From the NCBI GenBank assembly GCA_965285935.1, contig OZ260662.1, positions 6,076,001 through 6,140,000 on the forward strand: a DNA stretch of 64,000 nt, written 5' to 3'. Below, in pieces: positions 3,880-48,789 of this stretch. The notes beneath the pieces are model-generated. The model had not been told where the DNA came from and did no database searches. It saw only the letters and a program-made list of their open reading frames with translations. The translations under genes and the position numbers were made by a program. Source of the DNA: Ophelia neglecta. Lineage: Eukaryota. The stretch's first letter is position 1. Every line of letters begins with the position of its first letter.

Positions 3880-5499
3880 ATAATTTGTCGTCTGCTCTCA
3901 ATGTGCAGAAGCGAACACCAAATAGCTTCCTTATCGTAAGTCGGTCCATTGTCGTCTGATGCCGCACCAAATTTAATTTTGGAGTTTTTCTAAGGCGGTT
4001 AACAGTGGATTACCCAGCATTTTCTGGTTAGTTGGTTTTCTGTATAGGCAGAGTCTATGAGCGTATCTCTGGTGACATAGCTCTCTGCTTACACGGGTCA
4101 AAACATACCCAGTACAAAGGTAGGTAAGTGGCCCATCGGGGTTTCATTATATACCTAATAATACGTACATTTTATTATTAACTGCACCTGTGTGGTCCAC
4201 CAGTTCATAGTTTTATTATTTGAAAAATAACCGGACGAAGTGCCCAATCCCTTTAGAATTACTGTTTGTATGAGTGCCAGGTGTCTTATTATGTGTATCA
4301 ACGGTAAGGGCCCCTTTCCAATCTGGTACTAACATCAAGTGAATATCAGGTGTCTGATGACCCAATCATTGCCATACCTGTGTAACCAGGGTGAAGCTAA
4401 TTATCTAACGAGCTAATCTCAGGTGTAATGTTACCTGACAATCTCTGTTCAGTGACAACCAGCCGGACAAGTCGGATTTTATCTAAGATATTTTCACAGT
4501 ATTTTCTTGACCAATATCTGGTAACAAAAGGTCAGTTCTTAGCCTGAACTCCTACAGTGACCTCATGTGTGCGTTGGAAAAACACGGCATCCAATCAGTT
4601 CTCGTCTTACTAAGGTTTTATAGTCTTCTTAGAGAGTTTCTCTCTCTTCAAATAAAGCCGGGTGTACGTGCACATTTAACACAGATAATTTTCTGCTGGT
4701 GGTTGATCATTTATAGTAAATGATAAGATCATCTGACCTCCCCTTCCGCCAACTCCCTTGACGGTTTTGTCTCCCCCCTACCGCCCTCCGTGGCGGGTTT
4801 TCGCCCCCCCCCCTCCCATAGTCAACCCCCCCCTCCCCTCCCCCCAACCGACCCCCTCCACATAACGTGTAGCCTCTCCAGCCTCTCTCTCCGTAAACAC
4901 AACACAAACCCACAAGCACCTAATAGTTCACTCCCCCACCCTCCCCACAAAACCCATCCAGGCAGTTGGAACTCTAATATTTGCTAGGTGGACCAGGTAC
5001 AGGGAACTCCGGTATGGTAACGCAGTGTCTTGTCAGCGGGCGAAAGGTAATTCGCTTTACAACCCGTAATTGCAGTCAAATAACGGTAGAGATCAGGGGA
5101 CTTCCAGAAAAAAATATATAATGTTCTAAAGAAGATGAGAGAGAAAGGTGTCTTATTAATATCCCATTGATGTGTGTCACAAACATTGCGAGAGACTTAT
5201 CAGCACTTCAGGTAAGAGGTGGTTACCTTGCAAACAGCCTCATCTTCTGACCCTCTTTGCACTGATGGTCCTTCAGACCATTTAACTGTTTTAAGTGTTC
5301 TCTTCGCACTGTAGGAACTTTGTACCTCATAGCTTTAATATAATATTCTACATTAATGATTTCAATAGTGGAATGCATTAGGGATACTTCTCCAAATCAT
5401 TATATGGATGGTAAGCTTAGTGGTTCTTCAAGAGCCATTAGTTGATGCACTTCTGCTTAATATGGCCTTTGATCAATAGACATGAACTCTCTCCTGTAG

Positions 5500-5680
5500 A
5501 AGGGACGGTACCTATAATCGCTGTTAACTGGGCTGGACGAATAGCTCTGCCACTCGGGGAAGGCGAGAGCGGACTTCAAGGCGGACCTTCTCCTTGTTAG
5601 ATGAACGCGGGCTGATGTCTACCGCCTAGTTCACCTTCCAGCATATACCAGGCGTACCTCATTCCACTTGGGTCAATTTC
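5500..5680 (-). mobile_element. SINE-like relic
   Basis: Reverse-strand ACCCAAGTGGAATGAGGTAC...TGCTGG resembles central domains of invertebrate tRNA-derived SINEs. No tRNA head is visible. Confidence 0.35.
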
Positions 5681-5803
5681 TGGACAGTTTTCTCGGTCCG
5701 TTCTCTGTAGTAGTCTTAACTCTTAGTCGGATTTAAATCAGGATTAATCAGGATTAAAGCGCTTGATCGGTGTTAACGTGCTAATCGGGGATTCTGGACA
5801 CTG

Positions 5804-6421
5804 GGCCCAGTCTCTAGAAGTGGTATTAACACTTATTTCGAATTAAAAACAGGATTAAAATGCTTAATCCGGCTTAACTTGCTAAGGCCAAAAAAAAATT
5901 ATGTTTCCTATTACATGGACAAAAAAAAATAGGGTAGGTAGAGAGGAAAAAGGTTTTTTTTTGGAATTTTTTTTTTGTAATGATCCTCGCGGTGTGGGTG
6001 TAATTTTTTCAGTATTTTATCATTAAATGTGGTTAACTTCACCAATTCTGAGAACTACAATGTTAAAACTACAATTGAACAGGTTTTATTTCTTAACTAC
6101 AACTGGAGTAAGTCGCGAGAATGAAATTTCTAGCGGACGGCGAGGGACGATGTTTCTTTGACTTTGGCGAGAATTGTTAATTTTTTTTAAGATGCTCATA
6201 AAAATTTTAGGACCGGGCACCTTTTGCTATATAGGGTTGGGCGACCGGAAACATAATTTTTTTTTTGGCCTAATCTGGGTTTCTGGGAGCTGGATTGGTT
6301 GTAAACTTAGCTATTATGGTCCTAAGCTGAACCCTGATCAATGGAAACACCGATTAACATGGCCTCAGCTAATCGGTAATAGGCAAATCTCACCCCAAAG
6401 ACCGCTACCAGAAACCAGGCC
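5804..6421. mobile_element. Harbinger-like MITE (host of the nested element)
   Basis: GGCCC...GGCC TIRs with CTG flanks. An uninterrupted copy lies at 9107-9343. Confidence 0.75.
5886..6270. mobile_element. PIF/Harbinger-type MITE nested in another MITE
   Basis: TIR GGCC(A)nTTATGTTTCC, 3-bp TSD TAA. Confidence 0.85.
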
Positions 6422-8878
6422 CTGGAGATAGCTTTATATTATTCTTGTGGAAATTCCACCCATTATAGTCATAGTAACGTCTATACAATGGTCACAATCG
6501 TGAAGTTTTTGTCACAATTCACTTTCAATTGTTTATATGATGCCTAAATAAATTACGCAACAAATATCAAGAGAAACAGCGCCCTTCAACGGTCATAGGA
6601 GCCATTACCGCCGCATTCAACAACTACTCACTTCTTTTATAACGAAAAACCCACTTAATCATGCACCAATGTTCTACCCAGTCCACTCTGCATCATTTAT
6701 CACCTCGCCGACCCCTATAAACCTTATTAAGTCGGTATAAAGTCACATATACACTCAATTAACGCCTTATAAAGCCACATTAGCCCCCTATAAACTAGAT
6801 TACCTATCCTGTTTACCACCTCACTCTTTTACAAAGTGTCATTGTGCGAATATTTGTAAATATCGCCCCAAATACCTACTTACGATATCAGATAAAGGTC
6901 TCTGAAATGATGCATTCATTGGGGGTCTTTTATTTGAAGATTTGTCGGACAAGGTGAGGGAGGGTGTAGATATCCAGCTTTCACTGGCAAATATATATAA
7001 GAAAGGAAAAGTGACGTTGCAGGATATTTGTTATGAGCATTTTATTGCGAAGAGAGTATTTACTAGCTCTGTCGATCATAAGAAGTCTCAATAAAATGTG
7101 TGATTACAGGTAAAAAGTGGGACAGGCCACCCGACATGCCATGTAAGTGATGTTCGATTATCTCTCGGGGCTATACATCATTTATGTATATATGTGGGCG
7201 AACGTTTTTATTTTAAACTGCAACATTCTGACACAATGTCTACTTCTCCAGAGGATAATTATACAATGGAAAACAATATATTTTTGTTCGGAAATAATAT
7301 TATTGAAGTATATACCCGCAGGAAATTTGGTAACCACTTGGTAGGACAAAGGGAAACATAAGTTTATTGACCTTACAAATTTCTATCAAATGGACAATGT
7401 GTTTTAGAACTGTTTCCTTAAGTTTGTATATTCAACATAATTATTCAAACTAGCAAACAATCAGTGTTAAGTGCATTATTTTACTTGCAAATTTGACTTG
7501 TATACACACTTAATGAAAGACTTATCCTGTCTCGGTGTGTGTTGATAGAGTTATGATGTGTTAGGCGGACATCTGATGTGCGAAATACAAATTTATAACC
7601 TCAAATCCGTGAATCAAGGAATAGAAAATATTCAGGTCCACAGCATGACAGTCTATTTATTCTAATTGCCAAGGAATTTGATATAGCCAGGCCGTAAAAT
7701 TTTATTCAAAAGATGTTACGGTACTTAAGATGGAACACGAGGAGTGACATAGAAATGGACAAGCGCTTTGCATGCATGTTAAAGCAGTTAGCTTCGTTTT
7801 TCTAAGGTTCTCCAGTCCTATAAGTACCAATAAAATAGTCCGTTGTCGTCGGTTTTTCATGATTTATTATAAACCCTAAAACAGATAACTTGATTATCAA
7901 AGTAGACGAATTTTGAATTTGAGACATTTCAACCTTGTCAGAAAAGAATCAAATCAATTTAATCAAATAGAAACTAGCTAACAGAATGTAGACTTTCAGC
8001 TGACATGTCCATGGCTCTTTAAAGACTGAAGACATTCAGACCATAAAACCGTTTTGAGCGCTGAAGACAATTGGTCAATAAACCCTACGGAGCATACAAT
8101 TGCTCAGAATGTGTCCCTCCGAGTTAAACTCCAACAGATCTCTATATAACAACCTCCTTTATTTCTGGTAATATGTAAATAACAGAGTTATAGAATTGTT
8201 AAACTGGATAGATTCACGGAATATGGCAATACGGAGATGGCAATGCAGCATGTTGTGGCAAATTAGGGCAGCAATTTTCTTTGTAGGCAGGGGTCCGCCA
8301 ATACTTTTGTTACCACATTTTAAAGTAATTAAAGAACAAGAGACATTGAACCAAAATAACGAGGGAGCGGGAAAACTTTGAACTGAAGTGGGCAGTAGAT
8401 AGGGAAAGGCACATGTTTTAAAGAATACACAAATAAATCGTTTCTTGCAGGTCGAGTGGAGCGTTTTAAATTGATTGTCCAGACATTGTGTGATCTCTAT
8501 GTGGCGGTATTCTGTGTTGTCGAGAGTCGTGTAGAGTTCCCATGGTCCGTATGTAGGTATCCTGGCCCGAAGTACCTCCCGGACAAATCAAATAGACCTC
8601 CCGGTAGGTCTCCGACAGCGTCAGGAATGATCAAAAACTGTTTGTCCCGTGTCAACAAATATCACAGATAGCTCCTGTCAACAATCGTCACTTGTCTGAC
8701 CGAGACAAGGCCGACTTCCTGTTTAAGACATGTTTCCTCCGACCCTCAATGCAGCCGACAGAATTCCTACAGTGGCCTGAAGGCTCACACTTTACAGGAT
8801 CTTGGTCAATATTGATGATATCGAACTTCAAATTCGAAATATATTTTCTGTGGAATGGTTGAAGTTCATACTTATCTA

Positions 8879-8975
8879 CAGTTGAATCTGTCATAAAGAC
8901 CACCTCTATAATCAGACCGCCTGTCAATTCAGACCACTAATATGAGGGCCATACTGTATACTCTCTATGTTAAAT
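8879..8975. mobile_element. Truncated CAGTGAAACC-family MITE
   Basis: Matches one half of 15292-15469 (AAAGACCACCTCTATAATCAGACC...). Confidence 0.7.
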
Positions 8976-9106
8976 ATGGCACAAAGTACAAAATGAAATA
9001 CGAATTACAGGGATAGGCATAAATAAGTTTAATTTTATCTACACGGTAATGACTTTAAGACTACATGTAGCTGCTGAACATTCAGTCACAGACAGCTTGT
9101 GCTCTG

Positions 9107-9343
9107 GGCCCGGTGTCTGGAAGCAGTCTTACCTCTTAACTAGGATTACAGTTCGGATTAAAATGCTTAATCGGTCTTAACTTGCTAGTTGTTGTATCTG
9201 GAAGCTGGATTCGGTGTGAGACCTAGCCATTTTGGTCTTTAACTAAATCTTGGTAAATGGAAACACCAATTAACACGGCCTCAGCTAATCGGTAATAGGC
9301 CAATCTTATCCCTGAACTTTAGACCGCTTCCAGAAACCGTGCC
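9107..9343. mobile_element. Harbinger-like MITE
   Basis: TIR GGCCCGGTGTCTGGAAGCAGTCT/AGACCGCTTCCAGAAACCGTGCC, CTG TSD. Confidence 0.8.
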
Positions 9344-9366
9344 CTGGCCTTATTCCCCCCATTACG

Positions 9367-9730
9367 TGTCGCCTATGGACACTTTTATACGACTGTTCCC
9401 GTCTATGCTGGCCTTCCTTTGTACTTAGCCTTTTCCTTATTATTACTTAACTTTTTTCTATCTATTTTAGGGCGTCCAATGTATACAGCCCTAACGGCGA
9501 TTATTGGCGTCCTGGTATCATCTCACTCGGTTCATTTTTCATTGACTATAATGTATTGTGTATATATAATACCAAATAAACGACCTACTACCTGTGATAT
9601 CCTATGTTTTATTGTTATTGTTATTATCATTATTCATCTTATTATTTATCTATTTAATAATTTATGTAGCGCCATACATCAATATTGTCGTTTGGCGCTG
9701 TACAGTGCACGATAAGATTTTAAAGATTCA
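9367..9730. mobile_element. Two tail-to-tail LINE 3'-end relics
   Basis: On +, a T-rich UTR ends in AATAAA plus short repeats (~9580). On -, an L2-like GCGC..GGCGCTACATAAAT end has an (AAT)n-like tail. Confidence 0.45.
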
Positions 9731-10868
9731 TACATACATAGACACAGTTAAGGTAAGTTATTGTAAGAGTATTAAGCCTTTTGGACAGAGGGCTATACGA
9801 AGCAATCAAGACCACACCTTCCTGTTGATGGTTTCACGTAGAGATTTGACTGTGAATAGCATATAGGAATGGGACGATTTCATATACGTTGTACGGTACA
9901 CAGCTGGGAGTATTCCTCCACCAACCGCAGCTCTGTACAATTCAAAGGGACACAAGACAACCCACAAGAGACCCTACCATAACATAACATGTACACGATA
10001 ACCAGTGGGAGTCTACCCAGGGCTGTTGTTCCTTTACAAGTCAAAGAAACAGATGTTCATTTAATAAGAATTGGCCGGACGACACAAGCCCACGGTTATC
10101 CCGAACACAAACCCTCGGTTACCCACGACACACATAGATTTGTTTCGACAAAAGCCTAATCACTGCTCTGGGCGAGGTTCTTCACTTCCTAATCACTTTT
10201 TATTTAATGAGAACAGGTTGTCTTATTCCCGAGCAGCAGGTCTAAGTATTGCTAATGATTCGGGAGGGCGGACACCTTGTATATACGGTTAATGACTTTA
10301 AAACTAATATTAGGACCCAATACCGCACTTAGAGAGGAATGGTGTTAATGTTTTTTGAGGTTTCAGCCCTCTGGCAAAGTAGAGATAGAACTCTCAACAT
10401 TCCTTTGAGACTGCATGGGCTGTTAATGATTCGCCACAGAACGAAAACATTGTTAAACCTTCCGACCACTGCCCGCGCAAACACAAGGTGTAAAGTCTTG
10501 TGATCTTTTTTGTCTTCATAATCTGAGACGAAAACCAACCTCGCCGCTAACAGGCCTGAAAGAGGCTTTGGTGTGTCCAAGGACTCCCAATAACGTTTAT
10601 CTTTGGGATATTGTCCGTTTTAAATGTTTACTTTTGGGATTTACAGCCTTTCTTGAATTGCCAATGCTTCCGAACTACTTTTTCTGAAGGTACATGATCC
10701 AGGTTTATTAGCCTCTAGCCGGCATTCGCATTCAAATCAAAGACAGACTGGATGTGTTTGTTTTGGAGATTCAGAAGGGGGCTATCAAGGGAAAGAGGCG
10801 AGTAACGAGGAAGCTTCTTCCCATCCCAACGACCGCATTCCCCATGTTTCTTTACCTGATCAATACTC

Positions 10869-11088
10869 GGCTTTGTGTTAACGGCGAAAGCGAAAGCTTC
10901 GATGAAAGCCGCATGGCCTCTTAAATTGAGCTAATGTGAACACAATAATAACCTTACCCTTTCCCATTTATATCAAAATCAAAATTGAGATGTCTGGGTT
11001 AAGGTTGGGTTAGAACTGATATTTTAGATTATTGTGACACCAATGCTGCTTTCGCAACAGCTTCCGCTTTCGCCGTTAACACAAAGCC
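10869..11088. mobile_element. 220-bp MITE with GGCT termini and 8-bp TSD
   Basis: Perfect 24-bp TIR GGCTTTGTGTTAACGGCGAAAGCG, TSD CAATACTC. Confidence 0.9.
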
Positions 11089-11308
11089 CAATACTCTTAA
11101 CAGTCAGTGTTATGATTTTAGTTGGCGGTTTGTTTCTCTGATCGCCTTCCGCGGGAGTCTTGAGAAACTGGCTTGAATCCTGAGTGTTTATTACCTCCGA
11201 TCACAGTCAATCTTGGTTGATTGCCGCCCATCTGTCGAGGTGTTAACAGCCGTGACATATCATTTCCCCTGAGACACCTATTCCGCCCTGCCTTATGTTA
11301 GGTAAATA

Positions 11309-11351
11309 GAGTGAAACCTGCCTTAAAGACCACCTCTATATTTAGACCACA
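11309..11351. mobile_element. Terminal fragment of a CAGTGAAACC-family MITE
   Basis: AGTGAAACCTGCCTTAAAGACCACCTCTATA matches the terminus of 15292-15469. Confidence 0.65.
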
Positions 11352-14002
11352 TGGAAATTAAGACCGAGGAGCGAGTTGAAAAAGCCAGGGCAAGGAAAAA
11401 CGAATGATTCTTAAAATACAAGAAGGAAAATGATCTACCTCGTTGAAAAAATAGTTTTCATTTAGTCTCTGGCTTGTAATTATATAATCATGGGAAGCCC
11501 ATTGGGATATACTTGCAATAACGGGAACTTCCCGACCTGTAGCCAATGTCAACTGTGCAAAACGCTCTTTTTTTTAAACTCGCTCCTCGACTTTTCATAT
11601 CGCCCCTCGCCTTTTCCAACGCGCTCCTCGCCACTCGACCGATTTAAACACTCCACCTTGAGTAGACAGGCGCTAGCATCTCATGCTATACTACCCTGCA
11701 CGTGCTGCCTAAATGCTTCCGGCTATCATGACCAAACTTTAGGGAAAGATTAAGTGCCCTGCTCTCCGATAGGGGATATGCACACCCCGTCATTTGACTT
11801 GGCACACATGCTGGGGTTTAAAGACAATGTTATGATTAAATGTACAACTTTGATCTGTGGTATTTAATCAAGGCAAGAAAATATTACAAGACAGCGTGAA
11901 CATCATAAGGTTAACATTGATAATGTACTGTGACATTTGCCTGTCGTTTCATCAAGTTCGGGAACGACAAGGAAGGCACTGCCAGTCTGACTACAGAGCT
12001 TCTCAAATTTAAAAAATGGTGGCGGTTAGCAGTTGATAAACAAGTATTGTCTGTTTGTTTGACTTTCTCTTTGGACACAGTCCATTAATTTATCTGAGTT
12101 TACATAGGCTTTCAGCCTAAACCAACAGAAAGTCCGCCCAAAAGATGATAAGTGGCCTATTTGGAGCAGCAGTATAAAACAGTGATTTTCCAGTAGATGA
12201 GCTTGTGTGTTCAGGAGTTTAGGACCATGAGTCTTAAGATAATATCATATAAAAGGCACGGGGAGTTCTCCATGGACAAGAATTGACTATCTCCCAGCGA
12301 TGAGTGATATTTAAACTAGCCCCATGTGTCCTATTATACGTATGTTATGTTAGTCAAAGCTCGTGTCTCGTGATACACAATGAAGTTAACTGGCTATCGA
12401 GTACCTGATTACCCAATCATTGTTATACCTGCGTAACCAGGTGTGGCTAATTATCTAACGAGCTTATCTCGGGTGTAAAATTGCCTAACTATTATCTACT
12501 GTCCGTGCCCAATTGTCAACAATGTCAGGCAAGTGCTGTTTTGTTGCAGATATTTTTACACAATTTTCTGGTCAATTGTTAGAAGAGAATGAGATGATTA
12601 TTCCCTCTTGGTCTTAAGTGGTGACCGTCTTTGCCCCACGCGGTGACGTCCGATGATAGAACATCAAGGCGCATGCAGTCAATTTCGCATCTTGTTATAT
12701 GTTTGTTGTCTCCATATAAAGTTTCTTGTGCCTCAGCATCCATAAAAGATTTCGCTTCTTCTTTATCGTAGACTCCAAACACTTATAAGCAATTCCCGTA
12801 TTAGAGGTGTATCAGCGAATGCTCCCGTGCTGCCGGCACTGCCCTGGACAAGCGCTGTGTGCCGGAATCTGTAGTTATTTATACCGAGCACAGGCGCCGC
12901 AGCACTGGAGCACTGGCGGCACTGCATCTATCTGATATGTATGTAGCTTGATGGAGTTCATTAGCAGATAAAAAAGACATAATCAACAGTCTGAGAGCTT
13001 TTTAAAGAAACCCTGCATAAATCTGTCTAAATGGGAAGCTGAACGCACAAAACAACAAAACGTGCGGCGGTTCCGTGGCCTTAGAGCGACAAATGCCAAG
13101 ACACACTTTTTATTTAAGAACAACATAGTATAAAGAAGGGTAGAATGTTGGGTGAGAAAAACAAGAACACGTGACTATACTAAGATTCAGATAGCCTCAA
13201 GAGACCCAATCAATCATGATGTTACGTTGGACAGTGCATGAGGTCCATTTACCGCGGTCATGTACTGTTTTGACTTTCCTCTACAAGCCGCTGCACTTAA
13301 CATATTCAAGGGAAACAGATCAACTTACACGACACCCGATCTAGCATTAACTTTAAACTAACACCACCCGAGGTCTGGCCCTTTTTGCGGTTCCTTTGCA
13401 ATTAAGTTTAAGCTCGGGAAATCAAAACAGGTGTTCATTTAATATGAATTGGCCACACGACTGAAACCCACGGCCAGTCCGACACCCCCTTCCGTTTGTT
13501 CTCCAGGTGTTTAATGGCGGATATGACCACGGCTATTCACTCCCTATTCATAGGCTAAAGTCCGAGTTAATTGTCTAGTTCCGTCCATTAGGGCTAAGTA
13601 TTATTAATCCTCTTGGAGGGCGGACGTTTTTTTTAACGTTAATTGGTTTAAGACTAAAATCAAGTATGGGTACCTCATATACAATATAAATGACAGTTAA
13701 GGAGTCGACCCTGAGCGTGGTGCTACGGTCCCTCTGACGTATTATGATTGGAGACACTCGTGGTTATAAGCCGACATCCCTTCCACCCGACTTAAGAGAT
13801 CTTTAGCGGCCTATTTCATTTGTCAATGGCCCCAAGCAGTGTTTACTAAGGGCTGTAGTCTCCTAAAGAAGAGGTGCAAGTGTGAATTTTGCTCGCGGGG
13901 CACTGTTTGACAAGACACCTCTCTTTAAAACACTTGATAAGCACAGGCAAAACACAAATACGTCTTTGAAACAAGCAGCTAGACAAGAGTCCTCATAGGG
14001 GA

Positions 14003-14631
14003 TCTGACGTCATTGGTGTGAGGAGAGGCTCTGACGTCATTGGTGTGAGGAGAGGCTCTGACGTCATTGGTGTGAGGAGAGGCTCTGACGTCATTGGTAT
14101 GAGGAGAGGCTCCGACGTCTTTGACGTGAACTCCAGAGTTCTCTGACGTCTTTGACGTGACCTCCAGAGTGACCTCCAGAGTTCTCTGACGTCTTTGACG
14201 TGACCTCCAGAGTTCTCTGACGTCTTTGACGTGAGCTCCAGAGGAGTTCTCTGACGTCTTTGACGTGACCTCCAGAGTTCTCTACGTCTTTGACGTGACC
14301 TCCAGAGTTCTCTGACGTCTTTGACGTAAACTCCCGAGTTCTCTGACGTCTTTGACGTGAACTCCAGAGTTCTCTGACGTCTTTGACGTGACCGCCAGAG
14401 TTCTCTTACGCCTTTGACGTGACCTCCAGAGTTCTCTGACGTCTTTGACGTGACCTCCAGAGTTCTCTACGTCTTTGACGTGACCTCCAGAGTTCTCTAT
14501 GTCTTCGACGTGACCTCCAGAGTTCTCTGACGTCTTTGACGTAACTTCCAGAGTTTTCTGACGTCTTTGACGTGACCTCCAGAGTTTTCTGACGTCTTTG
14601 ACGTGACCTCCAGAGTTCTCTGACGTCTTTG
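14003..14631. repeat. Compound minisatellite: 27-bp x4 then 31-bp x~17
   Basis: Units CTCTGACGTCATTGGTGTGAGGAGAGG and CTCTGACGTCTTTGACGTGACCTCCAGAGTT. Confidence 0.95.
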
Positions 14632-15671: not shown

Positions 15672-15677
15672 TTTATT
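15672..15677 (-). terminator. Candidate polyadenylation signal AATAAA of the RhoGEF gene
   Basis: TTTATT on the + strand ~0.9 kb past the stop, in an AT-rich 3' UTR-like region. An alternative lies near 15935. Confidence 0.4.
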
Positions 15678-36385: not shown

Positions 36386-39300
36386 AAAGAAGTGTATGTT
36401 ATTTTTATAATCTCACAACCCGATTTAAAAGAAACACGAATTAAAAGAAACAATTTTAACCTACTTATTGCAGTTACCTACAAACCCAACCTGGTTTCAT
36501 GCGTCAATGTGGTATCTTAGTCTCCATAACTACCTGGATTATAAATATATAGCCTTGGTGAATATATCTATTATTTGGAAATTGCGTGGAATTACAATAA
36601 TCAGTATGTAAAAGTTGGATATATGTGTCCACTTTAATATGTTTTTTATAATGAAGATGAGTTTGAACTTTTTAAAATTAACAGTTAGGTACAGACATGG
36701 GGTAAGGGTACACTAGTATTTCAGCTGATCATGTGGGCTGCTTTTCACTTAGTCCCTTATCGTCCGATCCCTTTGTACTGTATGTTCACTGATGGTCCTT
36801 TATACACATTTATGGTTCCAATTACACTGTAGTGCCTTTGTTGCAAACACCTCGGGTATAATGTTTAAAGGTAATGCTGTCAAGAACGGAAATCAAGAGG
36901 GAAACCTCTCCTAATTATTGTAAATTTAACACCTATAGGGGTTTCTCGAGAGACAGGCTTAAGCCAGCGGTTAATGTCGGCTATTGTCTCTCTTTAAAAC
37001 ATAGACTTTCAATAATGTGTAGAAAATCACCTTAAACAAGACCGGGAATCTATACTCCTTAATACCAAGTACTCGTATAGCTACTGATTGAAGTCAGGAG
37101 CGGATACAAGAGCGACATTCTTCCTTATAATACGTTATTGTAAACTGAATCTGAACTCAAGTCCAACACATAAAAACATCATCCATTTGTATTATCATCA
37201 TATTACATATTTACCAAGCCTCCCGGAGACCAATCTAAAAGCACGTCTCTTTATTATCTTAAGTTTTACATGCATATAATGTTATTGCATTTACAACTCA
37301 AACCATTCATTGTACAAACCAACCAAATTTCATACATAATCATAGTACGTTGTCATTTGATGATTTAAACATACCCGTATAGAGGCCCAGTCTTCACGAG
37401 CTACACCCCCTAATCTATCGATTACCACCGCCACATTAAATAACTAAATTCACTAATTCCGCAACTTAAAACCGAATATATTTGCATTATCATAGAATGT
37501 CCTCACCTATCGATCATTGATCAACTCATTAACTCACCTGTGCACACCAATATCTCACCTAAACACCACATTAACCCCTTATAACCCACATTTATCCCGT
37601 ATTAACTCGATTAACCTCCCTGTTTACCCTTTAACCTGTTTACCAAGAGTCAATGTGTGACAATTTGCACCAGTCACTGCTACCATAAACCTCTATTGGC
37701 TGATAAAGATCTCTTCTGTCAGATAAGGAGCCCACCATTTTTTATTTCCCACTAGGGAAAATAATGAAATAACATTTTAGTAAGTCCACGGGACAGGATT
37801 TTCCACTATAAAGAGTCGGTGGAACTTAACAGCCGAGGGACTCACAAACTTTCACCTGGTCAATGGACGGCAAGGGTCCCCTATGAAATAAAACCACACG
37901 GACTTTGTGTATGAAAATCTTAAAATGTATACATATATTAACAAATGGCGAAATGATCCTTAAAACATGCACACCATTTCTTTACACACGTTTCTTTCAC
38001 AAAGGCCTAGACATCTATTTAAACTAGGGAAATGTACGTGCCCTTGGGGAACCAGGGAACGGTTTTGGTAAAACAAAGGAGAATATTTAATTGACACATA
38101 TCGGAAATCGTATCAAACGGACAATTTGTTTTCAAGTTGTTTTCTTATATTTGTATTCAGGCTCGTTATTCAAATTAGCAAACAATTAGCACTTTAGAGT
38201 GAAAGCATAAGTCTTAAGGGCATTATTTAACTCGAAAATTTGACTAATACATACACCTAGCAAAAGGCATGCTCTGTAGTGGTGTGTGTGGAAAACGTTA
38301 AGGAGTGCTAGGTTGAAATCAAAAGTGCGAAATACAATTTTACAACATTACCTCAATACCGAAAGACTCTATTCATCAGCTTGGGAAACAATGTATTCAT
38401 ATTGGTATAGAATTTGGCTACTTTGCACCGTAAATTGTCTTGAAGTGTTATATGTATTTTCAACGTCACAATTCATTGGTTTGAAACATAAAGAGTGTAA
38501 TACAAATTAACAAACGCATTGGCTACCTTTGAACTAATCAAGGTGTTATCTATGGTAATTTAATGCCGAGTTGTATAATTACATGTGTGATGTAAAGAAA
38601 AAAACTGTCAAAATACCTGCGCTGTACAACGTTTTATATGATATCCAACATTATAAGCTTATATTTTATTAGTTTGAAGTATGAGGAGGGAAATGCAAAT
38701 TTACATTCGCCTTGTTTGTGTTAGGAAGAACCCATATATTGTCTATATATATATATAATTTGACGTAGAGGTGTACAATATATGTGTGGTGGGAAGAAAA
38801 AAGATGGAGACAATGTTTGACTTAATAACAACCTGTTTGACACTCCAGTGCTCATTTATTATAAAATAAAATGCAAATAAAGCCCCCTTACGTTAGTTCT
38901 CTTATCAAAACACGTGACCACTTACTGATACCCGATAGACAAAACTCACTGAACAAAACTTGTTTAATTAAATGTGTTTACATTCATCAGGAATTTTCCT
39001 TCGCGTCATCACACAAATATGTCTCTATTCATGTGGGGCTGCAGCGCACAGTTCCTGATCACGTGACCGATTTAATAAAGACGGAGACATTTGGCCTTTA
39101 ACCATGTCAGAGAAGAATCGAAAAACGTTTAAAGCAGCTATAAGCATTCGGCTGATGAGTATATGGCTCCTCGAGGAGCTGGAGACCATAAAGTCATTTT
39201 GAGGACTTAAGAAATTGGGGCAATAACCCTGTCAGGGAAATAATTACTCGCTCCCGGTAAACCCACATCTTGAGGATATTGTGACGTCCTTTATGTGTAT

Positions 39301-42300
39301 TAATTGGGTTTAACAAAGCCATAGATTTTCAATATCATCAAAACAGATCCAGGGAATCTGGAAATACTAGGTGGGATTTCTACGCCGACGAGTAAATTAG
39401 GGCCAGCAATTACTTTTATGGGCAGGAGTGGGCAATTACCTTTGTGGCCAGATTGTTTAAGTTGTTACATACATAGGGCATTGAACCAAAATAATGAGAG
39501 CGAGAAACTTGAAACTGAAGAGGGCAGTAGATGGTGGCGGGCTCATTCTTAATACAAATCATAGACAAATCAAGATTTCCGGTCTGTCGAGTGAAGAGTT
39601 TTAATTGTTTTGATCGTTGTCCAGGCTTTGTGTGGTCTCTGTCGTGGTATTTTGAGATGGTAAACGGTCATGTTTCATGAATGTATCCTCAGCCGAGGTA
39701 CCTCCCCAAAAATTTAAATAGACAGCTCGGTAGCCACAGATTCATTCAGGATTAAATGCTGTTTGTCCTATGTCAACTGCGATCGAGAACCTCCCGTCTC
39801 CTCTCAATATTCTTCACTGGTGTATTTGCGGTTGATTTCTTGTCTTAGGGAGACAGTTTTTCCTTCAAAACTAAAGAGCCTTCAAGTCCGTAGTAAAATA
39901 AATGCGCATGGTTCTGAAGACTTGCACTTGGTTTGGCGTGGTCAATACTCCTGAAGAATAAACTATCTGTATTTGTGTGTGAATTTTGTTCGACTTGTTA
40001 TTTCCATTCCTAATGGAATGAAAACAACACCCTAAGTGGTTTTATTACCATTTTAAGCTCACCGTCAATTCAGGTTTACCTAAGACAATAACAATAAACA
40101 CCCAGCAGTCCTTTTGTCACTGGCTAACAATAACACCTAAGCCACTTTAAGCCAAGCCCTGGCCACGCCAACATGTTAAGTCGGGACGTTAACTCCAAAT
40201 GTTAACTCTGACATTTGTATCAGAGAGATGGCTGTTGTCCCCCGGAGTATGCCTATAGCTTGTACTGATAAAGCTGTCTTCATTCACGTGGCCAAAGAAA
40301 TTCCATGTTAGGTGTGACTGAAAGATTTTATTCGCAGATAGTTCAAATCACAAAATTTAGCTAAATTTGCACAATGGTACCATCGATATACAATGATGTT
40401 AGGAGTGAACCCTTCGAAGTATCATGGCTAGAAGACATAGACACGATGATCTTTCTCCTTTTTTCTCACCTGAGGCTGTCATTGCCAGCTCAGAATGTGA
40501 CTTAAGACTGTCAGTGGGAAGAGTTCAACAAGACTGTGTTTAACAAGCGGACTAATGTCAATGAAGCAAATAGGTGTTAAGGGTTATTTCACTAACACTG
40601 GCGTCCCAATTTGTTAAGAAGAAACCTATCTGTATACCACCTGTGTCTACCAGGAACAGATCAGGAATCGGTATTCAAGACTATGCTAATCAAGATAGAA
40701 TAAAGGGAGCTAGTGTCCTGTTGTTTTACTTATCATCGCCTATCACAAGAGTGTTGGTGTCTTAGCCTGACTTTTCCTGTCTATCTTGTTCAATCCGATC
40801 TCCCTTTTGTTATATGTGTGATAAGCCTTTTGGAGAGGTAGCTCTTAGAATCAATAAAGACTCCGCCCTACCTCCCTCAAAGAGACCTATCTCTGTGTCG
40901 GACCCTACTTCCCTCAAAGACACCTACCCCCGTGTCAGGCCCTAAACTTGCCCCAATAAAACGTACCTCCCAGCGGTGTCCCTACCTTGTATTGTACATT
41001 GCTTGTAAATGGAATAGACTGTCTGTTGATATTATCAGGTGTTATCATGGACTTCTTCTGTTTGTGTCTCTGACTCCCATAACAGACTGAGCACAGTTCA
41101 TGAGATCTGATCAATCATTATGTCATAAAGGACCCTGGAGGGAGTCCACCGGCCACCGTCCTTCACTGTACTCACCTACCTCTACCCGACCACTGCCCAT
41201 CACATGTTAAAGGGAGTAGGAACAATATAAAAGAGACCCTATCTACCATTACCTTTACATAATCCCCACCGGGACTCTACCTACCGCTGCTGTTCCTTTA
41301 CAAGTCGAGGAAACAGATGTTCATTTAATATGAATTGGCCTCACGACACAAGCCCACGGTTATCATAAACACAAACCGACGGTTACCCCCAACACGCACC
41401 CCCATTTGTCCTGATGGAGGTCTGATGACTGCTCTGGCCGGGGTTCTTTACTTTCTATTGTACGGGAGCAAGTCTCTTAATTGCGGACAGCAGGTCTAAG
41501 TATTACAAATCATCCCGGAGGGCGGACATTTTGTTAGGTTAATGACTTTAAAACTAATATCAGGTCCCTATTCCACACTTAGACAAGAACGGTGTTAATG
41601 TTTTTTGAGATTTGTCAGTATTGATTCAGCCCTCGGGGCTGGGCAGAGAAAGAACTTTTCACATTCCACTGGCACTCCAAGTCAGTTAATGATTCCCCGC
41701 ACAACTTAAACCCTGTACAATCCGCTTGCCCACTGTCCTAGCAAACGTCAGGTGAAAAGTCATGTGATCTGCAAAGACTCGCACGCCTAGACAAATAATT
41801 CCTATCCCACTAATGGCCGTTTAAGAGACGTGCATATATTTAGGACCCCGCAATAACATTTACCTTTGGGATATTGTCATTTAGAATGTTTTCTTAGGGA
41901 TAAATTGTCTTTCACAAGCAATGGCCAATGCTTCCCAACTACATTTAACGGAAGTCACGTGACCCCCCAGTTTTTTTACAGACGGTATTCACGTTTAAAA
42001 AGACAGGTTGGATGTGCTTGTTTGAGAGCATCACAATAGGAAATCCAAGGGAGGCAGGTAATAACTTGGAAGCTTCTTTTAATCCTAGCCAATGACTTCT
42101 TCGTGTGTTTTTTACCTGCTCCTCCTGCTTAACATGACATCATAATATAAATCTCGCGCTATATATTTCTTTGAACTCATTCCACAGGAGCCTTGAGTAT
42201 TTGATTTTAAACCAAGGATGATTACTTCCTCTGATAACACTCCACCTGAGATAATTATCATTTATCGAGGTGTGAACTGCTTGGACACATCATTTCCCTG

Positions 42301-45300
42301 AGACACTCATCCCGCCCTGCCTTATGTCGGGTTACTACAGGTTGTCGCTGGCCTGGGCTGGTGATGTCTGGAATAGGCCCTAACTGTCTCCAGTTTTCCT
42401 CCCTGGTGACAATCTCATTTCTCCTTGTTATACTTTGTCTTTGACACATACTATGACTCCGATAGTCGTAAAGCAATGCTATGGGAACACATGAGTTCCT
42501 CAGCATAGCTTAAGGGCTGGGAGGAATAAATTCACATAGAGGAGGGCAATTAAAGGTCTCATCTGGAGGGAAGGCAAAATAATAACACAGTATTAAGTGT
42601 GTTTAGGATGATAATTGATTTTAATAAGTGATCTTCTTACACTGACTTTGACTTGGAGTGGATTTTGATTGAAGTTTATGGCTTAAAGTAGAATGTGGTT
42701 TCCTGGATGTAGGGCTGTGGTTATTACATGTATGTGACAGCGAGGATACCAAGCGATTAACATCGGCACTGTCTTATTATTTTCCTCTGTTGGTTCTAGC
42801 CCCATTGAGACTTTCAAACTTACACAGTTGGTGATGGTTAACAGCTGATTAACAGGTATTGTCTACTTGTTTGTCTTTCTCCGCGGTAAGAGTCCATCAG
42901 AATATCTTAGTAGACATAGGCAGTCTGCCTAAACCAACACACACTCTTGATAATAGATTGTAAGTGGTCGATCTTAGACAACTTTTCAACTTAATAAAAA
43001 CAGAGATTTTCTACCAAATGAACCCATATGGTTTGCTCCATAGGATTATAAACCTAAAGAAAATATCCCACTAATCTCCAGGGTAGTATACAATAACTGT
43101 GTTCATACCTGTGTAACGAGCTAAGGCTAATTGGTTAATGAGCTAAACTAAGTGTCAACAACAAAAGGCAAGAGCTGTTGCTCGTGCAAACATTTTTACT
43201 TTGTTTTCTGCTTAAATGTAGGGAGACAAGGACATGACCACAGTGGTGACATCTTGTGGCCGGTTATAAGCCATCCAGTGGCGCTCAGACCAAATCCTCA
43301 GGAACCGTCTGCCCTAAACATTAACCCCTGGTTCCCTATCTGTAAATAAGTGTAAACAAAATAGAAATCACTTAAGGATGGTTAAAGACGTGGGAGAGTA
43401 TATATGCCTGGTAAAACCATAATGAGTTTTAACGACCATATCAGGTGAATCGGCGGGAATCTAGCATAAACCGTCTGTGGCAGGTTCATAAAGCATCGAT
43501 GGTCAGCTCCGTAGATTTATAAGTTCGGTAGCGAATGCAAATGGAACACCACAACACATTCGATTAAAGTCACTGCTAGTTTATGTAGTCAATGGTGTAA
43601 GTGAAACAACATAACCAATCAGTGTGAGGTTTAAGAAGGACAAAGATGAACAGTTCCATTTGCAAACGTTGGATCTAAATATGACAAAAGGCGAGACAAC
43701 ACACGTTAGTCATTTGGTTACTACTATGGTCACATCGGACTGTACTCAACCGAAGCGGTCTTACTCCAACCGAATGTAACCTCAAAGCCCTGTTATTTTC
43801 TTGTTTTCGTTGACTTCAATTTCAGATGCTCTATATACTAATGACAGAAGGACCACCAGCGAAGTGACCAGATCTGGCTGGCAGATCAGAGGTGAAGATT
43901 CCCCGTCTACATTGACAGGACAATTCTCTGGCGTCAGCTGATGAATAGAGAACATAACAAGACAGAACTTCTTTACGCCTGTCTGGTTGACAGGGAGGGA
44001 GGGGGGGGGGGTAGGTCAGGGGTGATTTTTTTGGGAGGTTTAGCTGACATTTTTAACCCAGCGACCGGAGTGATATACAGCCATTGAGGCCTTCGGACTC
44101 TGGAATTAAAATAGATCCTTGGAATTAGGTAAGACTAAGGTAGGAATTCAACATTTATGTGGGAAACTACGGTTTTAATGTCTTTTGTCGGTAGAGTGGA
44201 ACAGTAATTAAAGAACCAGGTGCATTGAACCAAAATAACGAGCCCGGCGGAAAACTTGAAACTGAAGTGGGCAATTGGTTGTGACGGGAACGAGATTTAA
44301 ACAATACAATGATAATTCAATATTTCCTTTAGGTCCGTTGAGTGGATCCTTAATTTGTTCTGACGACTGTGCAGGCTTTGTGTGGTGCCTCTGTGGTGCA
44401 CTACCGGGGTGGACTACAGACCTGTAGAGTTACATACATCTTTGTGAGTGTATCCTGGCCCGGGGTAACACCAAGCAAGTCACATAGACTGATTATTGAA
44501 ACTCTGACAGCGACAACAATGATCAAAACCTCCCAATCCATGTCCAAAACCAACCCTTGTCTCTTGGAGACGTAGCTGAGGCCGACTTCCTGTCTTTAGA
44601 GGATGTACTTTGTTCAAATGAAAACAAAAATCAGAAATGAACACATATAGCATTCCTAGCTGGGTTCTGAGGCATGTTCATAGCTGGCGACCACTTCTGG
44701 CACCCATGTTTAAAGTGCATATTCCAACTACGATACTTAAGAGACGATATTTAAAGCTTGCGAAGTTAATGTTTCTTCATTTTACTAATCATGTTAAATC
44801 TCAAGAGGATTCTATTTTCCAAACTTCAGTAGGCTTCGCCTAGCTATACCGGCAATAGGTTTAACCCTTTTCCAAAAAATAAACCCTTCTACTTGCTTCA
44901 TTGACCTAATACGGCTTTGAAAGATCCAAGCTTTGTCGATAGCCCCTGTTCACAATAACAAAACTAAGTCGCATTCAGTCAAGTCAGTCATTCTCCCAAA
45001 CAGCATCTACAATTGATCGGAGTACCTTCTGTCAGGTTTGATCCCTGTAGCAGGATACCAGGCAGTCTGCATTCAGGATGTTAGCAATACAATTGGTGTC
45101 AGCAAGGTAGCTCTTGTCACCTGAAGACGGGCGTGTTTACAGATGTTGACACCAGTCCGCCAGCATTCAAATGTTAAACTGTATCGGGGACGTGAAGGAC
45201 CGGATGTAACTTACAGACTTTAACTGGAGTCAGTTTAGATAACATCTAGACCTAACACACTGACTATATACTACCCTCTCATTAGACAGGTGTCCGGACT

Positions 45301-46042
45301 TTTTACTAAACTTTAAGTTGAATCTAATCAGATTGGTATGACTTTTGGAGACCGTTCAATCATTATGTACGTATAATGGACACCACACGGAGTCACGCAG
45401 CCACTGTTCTTTACTTGTTAAAGGAGTGTGATCAACCCACAAGAGACCCAGCCTATTATTAACCTTTAAGTTGTCACCACCAGGAGTCTGGTCCTTGTTG
45501 CTGTTTCTTCACTGGTCAAAGAAACAGATGTTCATTTCATAGGATTGTCCACACGACCAAGTCCAACGGTCAGTTCCGACACAAACCACCACAGCTCTGA
45601 TGGAATCTAATGGAGACTACGGTCATGGCTTCTGAACTTCTATTCATTAGCAAGTCAGAACGAAACTCCAAACCGCGGCCAGCATGGTTAAGTATTACGA
45701 ATGGTCCCGAAGGGCGGACATTTCGTAAGGTTGATAGCTCTAAGACTAAAATCAAATATCGGTACAACATACAGTTGATAATAATGTAAATGAAGTGTGG
45801 ATTCTGTCCCCTGGGCAGGGCAGAGCACTTCTCACCGTAAGGCACTTTACACATAGTTCATAGCAAAGCACAACTACATTCCTAAAACCAACAACACAGC
45901 TGTCTTCTTTGAAGGTCTCTGTGATCATAACGGTAAGAGACTCTCAGATACACAAGTCAACCTCAGCCGACACACCTTTTATCTCGACTCAGAGCTCACC
46001 TTAGTCCGGGGGGAGTGGGGGGGGGGGTTTGGGGCGGGGGGG

Positions 46043-46434
46043 GGGGGTTCATAAAATTTGGATAAGTTCTAGCTAGCTAAACTTTTTAGTTGGCTAGTGA
46101 AAACTGGCTAAAATACAAGCTAGATAACTTAAATTGTTAGGATGCTATAGCGTAAGCCAAAGGTATGGCTAGGCTTATTGTGGGTACAGATAGGTGCCTA
46201 TAAAAAGAGGTGCCTCCGGGCCTCAATAGATAAGATTTTACTCTCCTCGCATCGTTGATTATAAAGTCCTATAGATAGGTATTGGCTAGCTGGCTTGGAT
46301 TAAAGCTGAAGCCTCAGATTTTGGGTTTTAATTCTAGACAGCTATGCTTTATGAAACCGTTTAGCCTAGAAAATATAGCGTTATCTCAAATTATAGCTGG
46401 TTACCCACTTATCCGATTTTTATGAAACATACCC
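46043..46434. mobile_element. MITE with GTTCATAAAA..GGATAAGT terminal inverted repeats (Harbinger-like)
   Basis: Inverted match to ACTTATCCGATTTTTATGAAAC at the right end. Confidence 0.65.
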
Positions 46435-46614
46435 ACAAGTGTTTATGGCCTACTAACAGTGTTTACTGTTCTCTGCCCATTTAAAAAAAACCTAGAGGGG
46501 GGTTGGGGGTTTAGGATCCAAACAGGATTTATCTAGAAGGCAGGCATGCAGACGTTTGGGATGAGAGTAGTATAAAGGACCTTATAATTCTCGAAACGCA
46601 GTAGAAGATCACAC

Positions 46615-46860
46615 AGGTACAATACCCTGAAGTGACGTAGAGACCTCTGGCATGCCATAAGTCCTAACTATATTTAGACAAACCGATATCTGTGGCATGC
46701 CTTAACTCAAACTGCAATTAGACAAACCGATATCTCTGGACCTATAGGCCATAACTCAAAACTTCAGTTAGACAAACTGATATCTCTGGTATGGCAGAAC
46801 CCTAAATTACAGTGAGACAAACTAAGATCTCAGTCATGCCATAAGTCCAAATTACGGTTA
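46615..46860. repeat. Degenerate tandem repeat (~45 bp)
   Basis: Recurrent TAGACAAACCGATATCTCTGG...GCCATAA. Confidence 0.75.
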
Positions 46861-48789
46861 TAATATTTCATACGTATTACAACGAGGGTTCTGCTGAAAA
46901 CACCATAGAACAGATCATTATATACACGCCTTGGCTTTTTACATCATGAGATATATAGATATGAGGATATCTATGTGGTGGATACACTAATACTGGCCCA
47001 GTGTTAGTGTATATATACAATTTGTGCTGCTCAGGCGCAGCGAAATTCATATATGGAGGGGGGTGGGGAGGAGAGATCTGTCAGTTGGCTGGCTAATTAG
47101 AACCGACCTTTTTAAATGCTAATATTGATTAAAAGACAATATCCTAGTGCTACTTCTGCGATTTTACTTTCCCTCTGCTTTTTTGACCAGATTGATCCGG
47201 CATCCGTTCGGTGGGGTCCCAGATTTCATCTGGACTATCAGAGGCCAAAGATGATTGAGGAATTACGACTCCTATTTAGGCAAATTATGTCTTAACAAAG
47301 GCTGTTCATGAGAGGTTTCATCATATAGAATCCTGGTATAGGTTGTCAGTGTCAGCGGTTTCTTCACATATGTCCTGTACTTTGGCCAGCATATGGTCCA
47401 TATTTGCGCTCCTTGGCTAATGAAGTAACATTGCCCAACAAAGGTGATTTACCTACACGGGCGTTATCAGACTCCATCGTAGACGTGCTATACCATTGAT
47501 ACCACATCTATATCGGAGAATCATCTGTAGGGGGACTTTACCATAGAGACCACTTCCAGCTTGAGAGTCAGATTTAAATCTGTTCTTTGTTTTCACTGAT
47601 AGCACTTCACCTGAGTTGATTGATACCCATCTGTCGAGGTGTTAACTGCCGTGACATATTATTTCCCCTGAGACACCCATCCCGCCCTACCTTATGTCAG
47701 AATTTATTTGAAATGGTCTAAGACATTAAAGTACCTCGCGTCTTGATGGCACCAAGATTTCTTGCAATTGAAAAGGGCTGTGCCCTCAAGAATATATTCT
47801 CTTTGATGTAAATTAATATTCATGGAGATGTGAGCTGGCCCAAGTGAAAAGCATGGTCTAGACTAGGTTCCCTATTACTGACAAAGCCCTGAGGCCTTTA
47901 TAACTGCATACATTAATATTCGAAGAGCGGGGTATGGGAGGAGGAATTGGGTGGCTACGGGTCCTTCAGTGTAAAGAAGACCTGTCAGGTGTATTGGAGA
48001 GGGAAGCGTGGGGTGGGGTGGTGGCGTCTATGAATCTCATAGGGCAAAACACACCTGCCAGTGTGGTGTAGAGAGCATGGAGAAAGGCTAGAAGTGTGAA
48101 TCTCGAAATCTACATGACAAACATGGTTTTCAAATCACAGTTTGCAGTGTACAGAAAGAGGCAGGGAAAATCAACGAAGTCCCCGCTCCATGAAAGATGT
48201 GGTTGAAGGGCTGGGAGGAATAACTCAGTTAGATGCACAGACGAGATCACAGATGAAACCCAAATTTAGGATTCATATGAGGCCAGGGAGGAATAATAAC
48301 AGGGTATTGGGGGTGTTTAGGGGGGTAATTAACTTTAATAAATGGTTTGCAAACACCGACCTTTGACTTCGGGTTCAAACCCGGTTTTAAATGGGAGCTT
48401 TGTGATTGCCCAAAATAGGATGGTGTTGGTAATTAGTCTGGGTAATGGCAGAATTACTAAACACATACAGTAAATAGGATAATGGTTCAATTTATATATA
48501 ATTATATTCGTAAAATATTGGGTAATTCAATGGCACTATTGGACTTTGTCTACCTTCTTTATTCCTTAAGATGTCAATGTTAAGATACAATTGTTTATTG
48601 GTGACATATATATGTACATATATAAATATATATGTATGTATATATACAATTATATGATGTTACTTTGGTGGAAATCTTCACTGATATTTTTTTTATAAAA
48701 TTTGATTATAGTTTTACTTAAATCCCTATTGACTATAGGGTTGATAATAAGTCTTTACAAAATTAAAATATAAAAAAAAACAGGTTTTT

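What the first reader, a model, noticed from the sequence alone, without database searches (positions are those of the whole stretch)
4330..48370. Ordered array of 3-4-copy non-coding modules: an older nested duplication with retained cores (candidate shadow-enhancer battery)
Seen: each large copy contains the same series of modules twice. M1 (CATACCTGYGTAAC...GCTAATTA...GAGCTAATCTC) is at ~4370, 12420, 34985 and 43105. M2 (CATTGAACCAAAATAAYGAG...AACTGAAG.GGGCA) is at ~8344, 39479 and 44223. M3 is at ~10030, 13425, 41295 and 45520, M4 at ~11225, 42260 and 47625, and M9 (AAGGGCT.GGAGGA...AATAAC) at ~14912, 42512 and 48206. None has TIRs, TSDs or ORFs. Inference: two rounds of duplication, with short cores surviving much better than their surroundings, which suggests selection on cis-regulatory elements.
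Basis: partly seen in the sequence, partly recalled or inferred. Interest (0 to 1): 0.75.

Follow-up and report, generated by a model that had tools for sequence, protein, structure and literature searches.

The report
Twice-duplicated non-coding block beside RhoGEF gene
A stretch of non-coding animal DNA next to a Rho-activator gene was copied in tandem twice, and a few short patches in the four decayed copies changed more slowly than the rest, as ordinary duplicated regulatory elements would, though no regulatory activity is shown.

Summary
The repeats are real and sit at the stated coordinates. They are remnants of one non-coding unit in four colinear, same-strand copies (A1, A2, B1, B2). 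A tree supports two nested tandem duplications, ((A1,B1),(A2,B2)), with both alternatives rejected at AU p<0.001. The 'modules' are largely pieces of one contiguous sequence split by younger insertions and deletions, not discrete cassettes. Block identity (59-75%) mostly cannot be told apart from synonymous-site identity (55%, interval 39-70%). Cores of about 50-75 bp in M1, M2, M3 and M4 exceed uniform-rate simulations (1, 2, 0 and 4 of 126); M0 and M9 do not. Only M1 and M3 slow down on all four branches, by about 40%. I found no coding, RNA-structure or splice signal, and no terminal repeats around the modules. Best reading: duplicated cis-regulatory elements under modest constraint (0.55). 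'Shadow-enhancer battery' needs activity data and is untested. This is a known kind of event.

The parts
3977..11885 (+). Unit A1 (M0, M1, X, Y, Z, M2, M3 with extension, M4, faint M9), broken up by inverted-repeat insertions
11886..15135 (+). Unit A2 (M0, M1, M3, M9), with a 31-bp minisatellite at 14003-14632
34841..42731 (+). Unit B1 (M1, X, Y, Z, M2, M3 with extension, M4, M9), with a 34-bp minisatellite at 35479-36387
42732..48442 (+). Unit B2 (M0, shortened M1, M2, M3, M4, M9), head-to-tail behind B1
3977..4230 (+). M0 in A1 (copies 11886-12266, 42732-43087); no core excess
   Evidence: 22 of 126 simulations reach it
4373..4426 (+). M1 core in A1 (copies 12424-12476, 34984-35039, 43104-43152); pairwise 35/49 to 47/53
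8344..8398 (+). M2 core in A1 (copies 39479-39530, 44223-44277); pairwise 43/52, 46/55, 45/52
10044..10092 (+). M3 first core in A1 (copies 13406-13470, 41308-41356, 45519-45566); pairwise 36/48 to 45/49
10241..10304 (+). M3 second core in A1 with a GC-box-like site in 4 of 4 copies (copies 13593-13654, 41495-41554, 45687-45746); pairwise 43/62 to 51/60
11226..11299 (+). M4 core in A1 (copies 42257-42328, 47625-47698); pairwise 58/71, 67/74, 60/71
14891..15135 (+). M9 in A2 (copies 42495-42698, 48185-48442); homologous, no core excess
   Evidence: 78 of 126
5125..7779 (+). A1/B1-only islands X (5125-5439), Y (6607-6904), Z (7307-7779), 62-64% identical to 36647-38530
16588..26191 (-). Gene A: 11 coding exons, 10 of 10 introns GT-AG, 656 aa, PDZ-RhoGEF-PH, PsGEF-like without a C2 domain in the window
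48784..58684 (-). Gene B, broken paralogue: exon 1 frameshifted (58594-58684), exon 2 (49057-49137), second half of the PDZ exon (48784-48883) without its donor; later exons absent
26718..26730 (-). CCAAT-box-like 13-mer about 0.5 kb upstream of gene A's start codon, identical at the matching place of gene B (59544)
   Evidence: motif name recalled
29796..30232 (+). Module E, two copies upstream of gene A; related copies at 1023-1286 and 63078-63485
32048..32193 (.). Assembly gap (146 N) between the two large copies

Best explanation
History (shown): a non-coding unit with at least about 4 kb of still-alignable sequence, just 3' of a PsGEF-like gene, was duplicated head-to-tail. The two units plus the gene were then duplicated again as a block of about 30 kb. 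The second gene copy stayed under selection for a while and then broke. Insertions and deletions cut the four units into islands. Function (inferred): the unit held cis-regulatory elements, clusters of transcription-factor sites about 50-75 bp long. Purifying selection on M1 and M3 in all four copies, and on M2 and M4 mainly in A1 and B2, slowed these patches to about 60% of the rate of their blocks, while the rest decayed at or near the neutral rate. The likeliest target is the intact gene A, which has one pair of units 1.5-12.6 kb downstream of its stop and the other pair 9-22 kb upstream of its start. A gene outside the window is not excluded, and the constraint may be past rather than present.
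For: Tree: AU p=1 against 7e-5 for both alternatives; informative sites 44 against 7 and 14. Best 40-column identity against 126 uniform-rate simulations with indels and realignment: M1 0.825 (1 reaches it), M2 0.867 (2), M3 0.862 (0), M4 0.900 (4); Fisher combination over all six blocks p=3e-4. Leave-one-copy-out in M1+M3: 57/477 mismatches in cores defined by the other copies against 156/756 elsewhere, 1 of 126 simulations, same direction in 4 of 4 copies. Independent pairs A1-B1 and A2-B2 covary in 20- and 30-column windows (r=0.46, 2 of 95; r=0.60, 0 of 95). CpG decay or base composition does not explain M1-M3 (0-9 of 200 in all 18 settings). Sister copies align over 46% (A1-B1) and 43% (A2-B2) of their length (summed by hand), against 18% of gene A's intron 1 and 16% of its upstream DNA. 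Common factor motifs are kept in three or more copies 11 times against 5.0 for permuted motifs (p=0.017).
Against: Block divergence (A1-B1 0.42, A2-B2 0.49) lies within the interval for synonymous sites (pS 19.5/43.2, 0.30-0.61), and the gamma shape of 4-9 means little site-rate variation overall. M0 and M9 show no excess (22 and 78 of 126). The site-by-site link between the independent pairs is not significant (OR 1.30, p=0.18), and the 10-column correlation is weak (8 of 95). The pooled all-branch statistic depends on settings (7, 32, 7 and 0 of 126). If true homologous background were 0.71, M1 and M2 lose significance (0.17 and 0.25). M4's core is not robust within its own block (2-53 of 200). 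The motif panel was chosen after I had seen the alignments. There are no chromatin, expression or cross-species data.
Confidence: 0.55

Rival explanations
1. Neutral fossil. The four units are decaying duplicates, and the cores are the best-aligning patches, produced by fine-scale mutation-rate variation and by picking the blocks that still align.
For: Block identity overlaps the synonymous interval. M0 and M9 behave neutrally. Gamma shape 4-9. With site-rate variation (alpha 1) and background 0.68-0.72, M1 and M2 cores are reached in 8-25% of simulations. Two-copy islands with good cores also occur in intron 1.
Against: The core excess survives realigned and CpG-aware nulls for M1-M3, and the leave-one-out test for M1+M3. 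My nulls do not model autocorrelated neutral rate variation, so this rival is weakened, not removed.
Confidence: 0.2
2. Gene conversion between paralogous units refreshed short tracts, giving identity peaks without selection.
For: M4 is closest between the non-sister copies A1 and B2 (67/74, against 58/71 for sisters). In M2 and M4, B1 shows no slowdown. The copies are tandem, 3-39 kb apart.
Against: One conversion would leave the third copy at background, yet in M4 A1-B1 is about 64/81 against a background of 0.66 (binomial 0.008). All six pairs are raised at the M3 core. The overall tree keeps the nested topology.
Confidence: 0.1
3. The modules are exons or splice signals of a non-coding transcript, or of a long-dead small gene duplicated four times.
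For: The M1 core reads as a strong splice donor on the minus strand in 4 of 4 copies. A1's M0 holds an AG-GT-bounded open 76-nt stretch (read). The order of modules is fixed.
Against: Splice sites shared by all copies number 9 against 8.8 +/- 2.9 in shuffles. No synonymous bias, and 42 of 187 pairwise indels are multiples of three (the codon test had little power even on true exons). No Pfam match above cut-off in 123 ORFs or 12 read-through frames. No match to the gene family or its C2 region. No Rfam family or tRNA. M1: 0 of 13 pairs compensatory.
Confidence: 0.08
4. The unit is an ancient transposable element (for example a non-autonomous Helitron-like or other element) that inserted or duplicated in tandem, with or without later exaptation.
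For: The window is rich in young inverted-repeat elements. An old non-autonomous element would leave no coding trace. No repeat library or genome was available to exclude it.
Against: All copies are same-strand, colinear and confined to four adjacent units. Their tree matches the gene's block duplication. No terminal repeats bound the units among the longest pairs listed, and there are no transposase domains.
Confidence: 0.07

Closest known systems
Shadow enhancers born by local duplication (fly CG6345 and E(spl)m sets; Ness, Kosztyo and Wunderlich, PMC13345019; abstract, Introduction and first part of Results read)
   Same: Several elements copied together with flanks and nearby genes by serial duplication; short conserved patches remain; larger sets more often show duplication (18.3% of fly sets, 33.9% of mouse sets).
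   Different: Those elements are defined by activity data and a shared target; here only sequence is available. The similarity here is longer (hundreds of bp at 59-77%) than their fly hits (median 18 bp, 93%), and the gene paralogue is dead.
Duplicated human enhancers with asymmetric evolution (Singh, Hoyt and Yi, bioRxiv 10.1101/2025.04.09.648062; abstract read)
   Same: One copy of a pair often changes faster; here B1 is the faster copy in M2 and M4, and B2 in M1.
   Different: Chromatin-defined, with outgroup species; here there are four copies, no outgroup and no chromatin data.
Redundant enhancers from independent transposon exaptation (Barth, Li and Taher, PMC7093719; abstract read)
   Same: An alternative route to several elements near one gene in a repeat-rich genome.
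   Different: Those partners are unrelated in sequence; these are homologous and colinear.
PsGEF (Higuchi, Kohno and Kadowaki, PMC2684095; abstract and first Results section read) - for the neighbouring gene
   Same: PDZ followed by RhoGEF. Gene A aligns over residues 32-642 at 35% (E 8e-101) to a C2-PDZ-RhoGEF-PH protein.
   Different: No C2-coding sequence was found in the window. Orthology was not tested by tree, and the names of the hits could not be looked up.

Membership tests
Nested tandem (segmental) duplication | Colinear, same-strand copies next to each other | tested here: met
Nested tandem (segmental) duplication | Tree groups copies by position within the larger block | tested here: met
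   AU p<0.001 for both alternatives
Paralogous conserved non-coding elements | Non-coding | tested here: met
   the codon test is weak, the indel pattern and the lack of homology carry the result
Paralogous conserved non-coding elements | Slower change than neutral DNA | tested here: inconclusive
   met for M1 and M3 cores, partial for M2 and M4, not met for M0 and M9; the neutral yardstick is only 43 synonymous sites
Paralogous conserved non-coding elements | Conserved in other species | not testable with these tools
Shadow enhancers | Each element has enhancer activity | not testable with these tools
   needs chromatin or reporter data
Shadow enhancers | Same target gene and overlapping expression (definition in PMC13345019) | not testable with these tools
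   only position is known: the units flank gene A on both sides
Shadow enhancers | Shared factor-binding sites between duplicated elements | tested here: inconclusive
   11 against 5.0 conserved motif instances, p=0.017, panel recalled and chosen after viewing
Dispersed transposable element family | Copies scattered in both orientations | tested here: inconclusive
   not so within 64 kb; genome-wide count not possible
Dispersed transposable element family | Terminal repeats or transposition domains | tested here: not met
   ancient non-autonomous elements could have lost them
Structured RNA genes (miRNA, snoRNA, tRNA) | Family match or shared fold with covariation | tested here: not met
PsGEF (neighbouring gene) | PDZ and RhoGEF domains | tested here: met
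   PDZ E 2e-10; single RhoGEF exons only E 0.01-0.02; whole-protein match to RhoGEF-bearing relatives
PsGEF (neighbouring gene) | N-terminal C2 domain | tested here: inconclusive
   none in the window; exons could lie outside it
PsGEF (neighbouring gene) | Orthology to named PsGEF proteins | not tested

The most novel reading that the evidence does not exclude
After the block duplication the gene paralogue died, but its regulatory units, which now lay 9-22 kb upstream of the surviving PsGEF-like gene, were adopted by that gene. One neural Rac-activator-type gene is then served by four homologous enhancer clusters on both flanks, with complementary loss of sites (B1 relaxed at M2 and M4, B2 at M1, A2 lacking M2 and M4). 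This fits B-unit branches being no longer than A-unit branches (0.19 and 0.23 against 0.23 and 0.26) while gene B lost most exons. It would be a four-way natural experiment on how redundant enhancers outlive the gene they were copied with.
Probability: 0.15. Interest if true: 0.6.

Novelty: new member of a known kind. Interest (0 to 1): 0.3.

Why it matters
Enhancers multiplied by local duplication are documented in fly, mouse and human, so the event is not a new kind of system. If activity were shown, the locus would be a tidy test case: four aligned paralogues with an ordered history, an intact gene and a dead paralogue, in what is probably a protostome invertebrate. It would let one ask which binding sites each copy kept and whether regulatory copies outlast the gene copy. 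Without activity data it is an old tandem duplication with a modest conservation signal.

Tried and rejected
Coding exons: six-frame self-comparison favoured no frame. The codon test was negative, but also not significant on the three true exon pairs (p 0.10, 0.52, 0.93). Pfam on 123 ORFs of 55 aa or more gave 5 weak hits, all below cut-off and unrelated, and on 12 read-through frames of two A1 stretches none (the B units were not scanned this way). The Atlas gave only noise-level hits for the 142-aa ORF over M2 (0.81). Tempting peptide-like frames in M1, M2 and M4 were dropped because stops or frameshifts are shared or scattered. Missing C2 exons of gene A: no hit above the decoys. Structured RNA: 4 of 48 folds had z below -2, with different structures between copies; Rfam gave 4 weak hits in the A units, none repeated in B. 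Uncollapsed haplotype: rejected, since the copies are 59-77% alike and the gene copies differ at pS 0.45. Whole-unit global alignment over-fitted and was not used for identity estimates. The column-shuffle motif null (12 against 3.3) is biased and was replaced by permuted motifs. The first realigned simulation ran about 0.03 low in identity for five of six blocks and was recalibrated; the window correlations quoted use the first set. A word-index protein search with one exon found nothing; the exhaustive search found 133. Names and organisms of those hits could not be obtained, so the lineage is inferred. A paper search for the T-box consensus returned 0, so all motif names are recalled. Bacterial, phage and plasmid collections were not searched (irrelevant to animal non-coding DNA). 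Metagenome and viral contigs were closed, so copies there stayed unchecked.
Full report
Setting. The window is animal DNA: spliceosomal introns, minisatellites, small inverted-repeat elements, CpG observed/expected 0.57, and a 146-N gap at 32048-32193. Self-comparison shows a colinear duplication with an offset of 28-33 kb running from about 4000-30200 to about 34800-63400.

Observation. Tile-wise nhmmer gave 241 off-diagonal hits against 4 on a reversed decoy. It resolves four units: A1 3977-11885, A2 11886-15135, B1 34841-42731, B2 42732-48442. A faint fourth M9 sits at the expected place in A1 (E=0.14), and a faint M3 extension in B2 (z=2.7). Blocks X, Y, Z and the extensions of M2 and M3 are clearly shared only by A1 and B1.

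The modules are not discrete cassettes. Across the B1/B2 junction, 1978 of 2202 bases align to another copy. In A1 the M3 extension and M4 are separated by an inverted-repeat element (10864-11093, with a copy at 61841-62033), whereas in B1 they are 40 bases apart. Other A1 spacers hold further such elements (5883-6272, 9106-9344, 11365-11630). Most spacers show no homology to the matching spacer of the sister copy: of the 11 sister-spacer comparisons, one had z above 3. Part of the 'core versus surroundings' contrast is therefore old sequence against younger insertions.

The gene. Between A2 and B1, on the minus strand, lies an intact gene: 11 coding exons from 26191 to 16588, 10 of 10 introns GT-AG, 656 codons and one terminal stop. 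Its exons match PDZ (E 2e-10) and, weakly, RhoGEF. One exon found 133 relatives. All 8 long ones scanned carry PDZ and RhoGEF, and 4 of 8 also carry C2. The best aligns over residues 32-642 at 35%. C2-PDZ-RhoGEF is the architecture of PsGEF, described as protostome-specific and needed for mushroom-body axon branching in the fly (PMC2684095, abstract and first Results section; PMC5499878, two passages). No C2-coding sequence was found in the window, so I call it PsGEF-like and infer a protostome. The second block holds a broken paralogue: frameshifted exon 1, exon 2, the second half of the PDZ exon without its donor, and nothing further. Over 66 codons pS is 19.5/43.2 and pN 23.5/154.8, so it was under selection for part of its history (inference).

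History. On the concatenated blocks the topology ((A1,B1),(A2,B2)) has AU p=1 against 7e-5 for both others; on M1+M3 alone 0.999 against 4e-4. Branches are A1 0.23, B1 0.19, A2 0.26, B2 0.23 and internal 0.12, so the first duplication is only modestly older than the second. Block divergence lies inside the interval for synonymous sites (pS 0.30-0.61).

Are the cores special? Against 126 simulations with uniform rate, indels and realignment, matched to block identity within 0.01 (0.02 for M0), the best 40 columns were reached 1 (M1), 2 (M2), 0 (M3), 4 (M4), 22 (M0) and 78 (M9) times; combined p=3e-4. Selection should slow all branches at the same places. This holds for M1 (1-6 of 126 across four settings) and M3 (0-14 of 126), not for M2, M4, M0 or M9; the pooled figure was 7, 32, 7 and 0 of 126. 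Defining cores from three copies and testing the fourth gave 57/477 against 156/756 mismatches in M1+M3 (1 of 126). Per copy the counts were 2 (A1), 20 (A2), 2 (B1) and 9 (B2) of 126; B1 shows no slowdown in M2 or M4. The independent pairs A1-B1 and A2-B2 covary at 20-30 columns (2 and 0 of 95), weakly at 10 columns (8 of 95) and not per site (p=0.18). CpG decay does not explain M1-M3 (0-9 of 200 in 18 settings), but M4's core is not robust within its already high block (2-53 of 200). With a true background of 0.71-0.72 and uniform rates, M1 and M2 lose significance while M3 (0.047) and M4 (0.003) keep it. The signal is real but modest and uneven.

What the cores are not. I found no coding signal, no family match and no likeness to the neighbouring gene family. 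There is no Rfam family, tRNA or shared fold. Shared splice-like sites are at chance level, 9 against 8.8, using matrices from 7 of 10 donor and 7 of 9 acceptor windows (the others were misplaced and dropped), although the M1 core is a strong minus-strand donor in all four copies. There are no scattered or inverted copies in the window.

What they may be. The sites kept in three or four copies resemble, from recall, a ZEB/Snail-type E-box and a homeodomain site (M1), an E-box, CCAAT, GC box and homeodomain sites (M3), and a T-box half-site and GC box (M4). With permuted motifs as control, 11 instances are kept against 5.0 +/- 2.3 (p=0.017), but I picked the panel after seeing the alignments. 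The simplest mechanism is clusters of factor sites acting as enhancers, most likely on gene A. This step is inference.

Comparison. Shadow enhancers are defined by a shared target and overlapping expression; duplication explains 18.3% of fly and 33.9% of mouse sets, sometimes with several elements and flanks copied together (PMC13345019; abstract, Introduction and part 1 of 3 of Results read). Asymmetric change between duplicated enhancers is common in human (10.1101/2025.04.09.648062, abstract). This locus looks like such a case, but membership is untestable here. My literature searches (listings only, apart from the papers named) were general, and I make no claim that the locus is undescribed. 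No supplements were read.

Verdict. Constraint is supported for M1 and M3, partial for M2 and M4, and absent for M0 and M9. A regulatory role is likely (0.55) but unproven. New member of a known kind; interest 0.3.

Noticed in passing
window 1023-1286, 29796-30232, 63078-63485: Module E: six copies of a short core that reads like a start codon (ACG in one copy) followed four bases later by a splice-donor-like GT, on the plus strand, about 3.5-4.5 kb upstream of genes A and B. The copy near 1180 may mark a third large block to the left of the window, or a small dispersed repeat (46-76% pairwise).
   Followed up: partly
window 2222-2404, 15289-15471, 25301-25483, 28576-29212 (three near-tandem copies), 32797-32979, 52999-53178; fragments at 8860-8976, 11303-11366, 49345-49530: A 183-bp inverted-repeat element with TA at its ends, resembling Tc1/mariner-type MITEs (label recalled); seven copies are 76-93% alike, the eighth 54-62%.
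   Followed up: partly
window 21029-21299 and 50150-50400: Island in intron 1 of both gene copies, 168/231 identical with a 28-base stretch differing at one site; another candidate regulatory element or alternative exon, kept even in the broken paralogue.
   Followed up: partly
window 26718-26730 and 59544-59556: Identical CCAAT-box-like 13-mer upstream of both gene copies, although the surrounding promoter DNA no longer aligns.
   Followed up: partly
window 17273-17727: Gene A has a serine-rich low-complexity stretch of about 90 residues in the exon between the RhoGEF exons and the PH-like part.
   Followed up: no
window 58680-59276 and about 26195-26220: A 27-bp minisatellite (22 copies) sits directly before gene B's start codon, where gene A has only a short 4-bp repeat; further large minisatellites at 14003-14632, 35479-36387 and 52115-52972.
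   Followed up: no
window 3646-3888 and 30252-30494: Two 88%-identical copies of another inverted-repeat element, one near each end of block A; younger than the block duplication by identity.
   Followed up: no
window 20696-20899 and 49136-49233: An 18-bp tandem repeat just upstream of exon 2's acceptor is kept in both gene copies, so it predates the block duplication.
   Followed up: no
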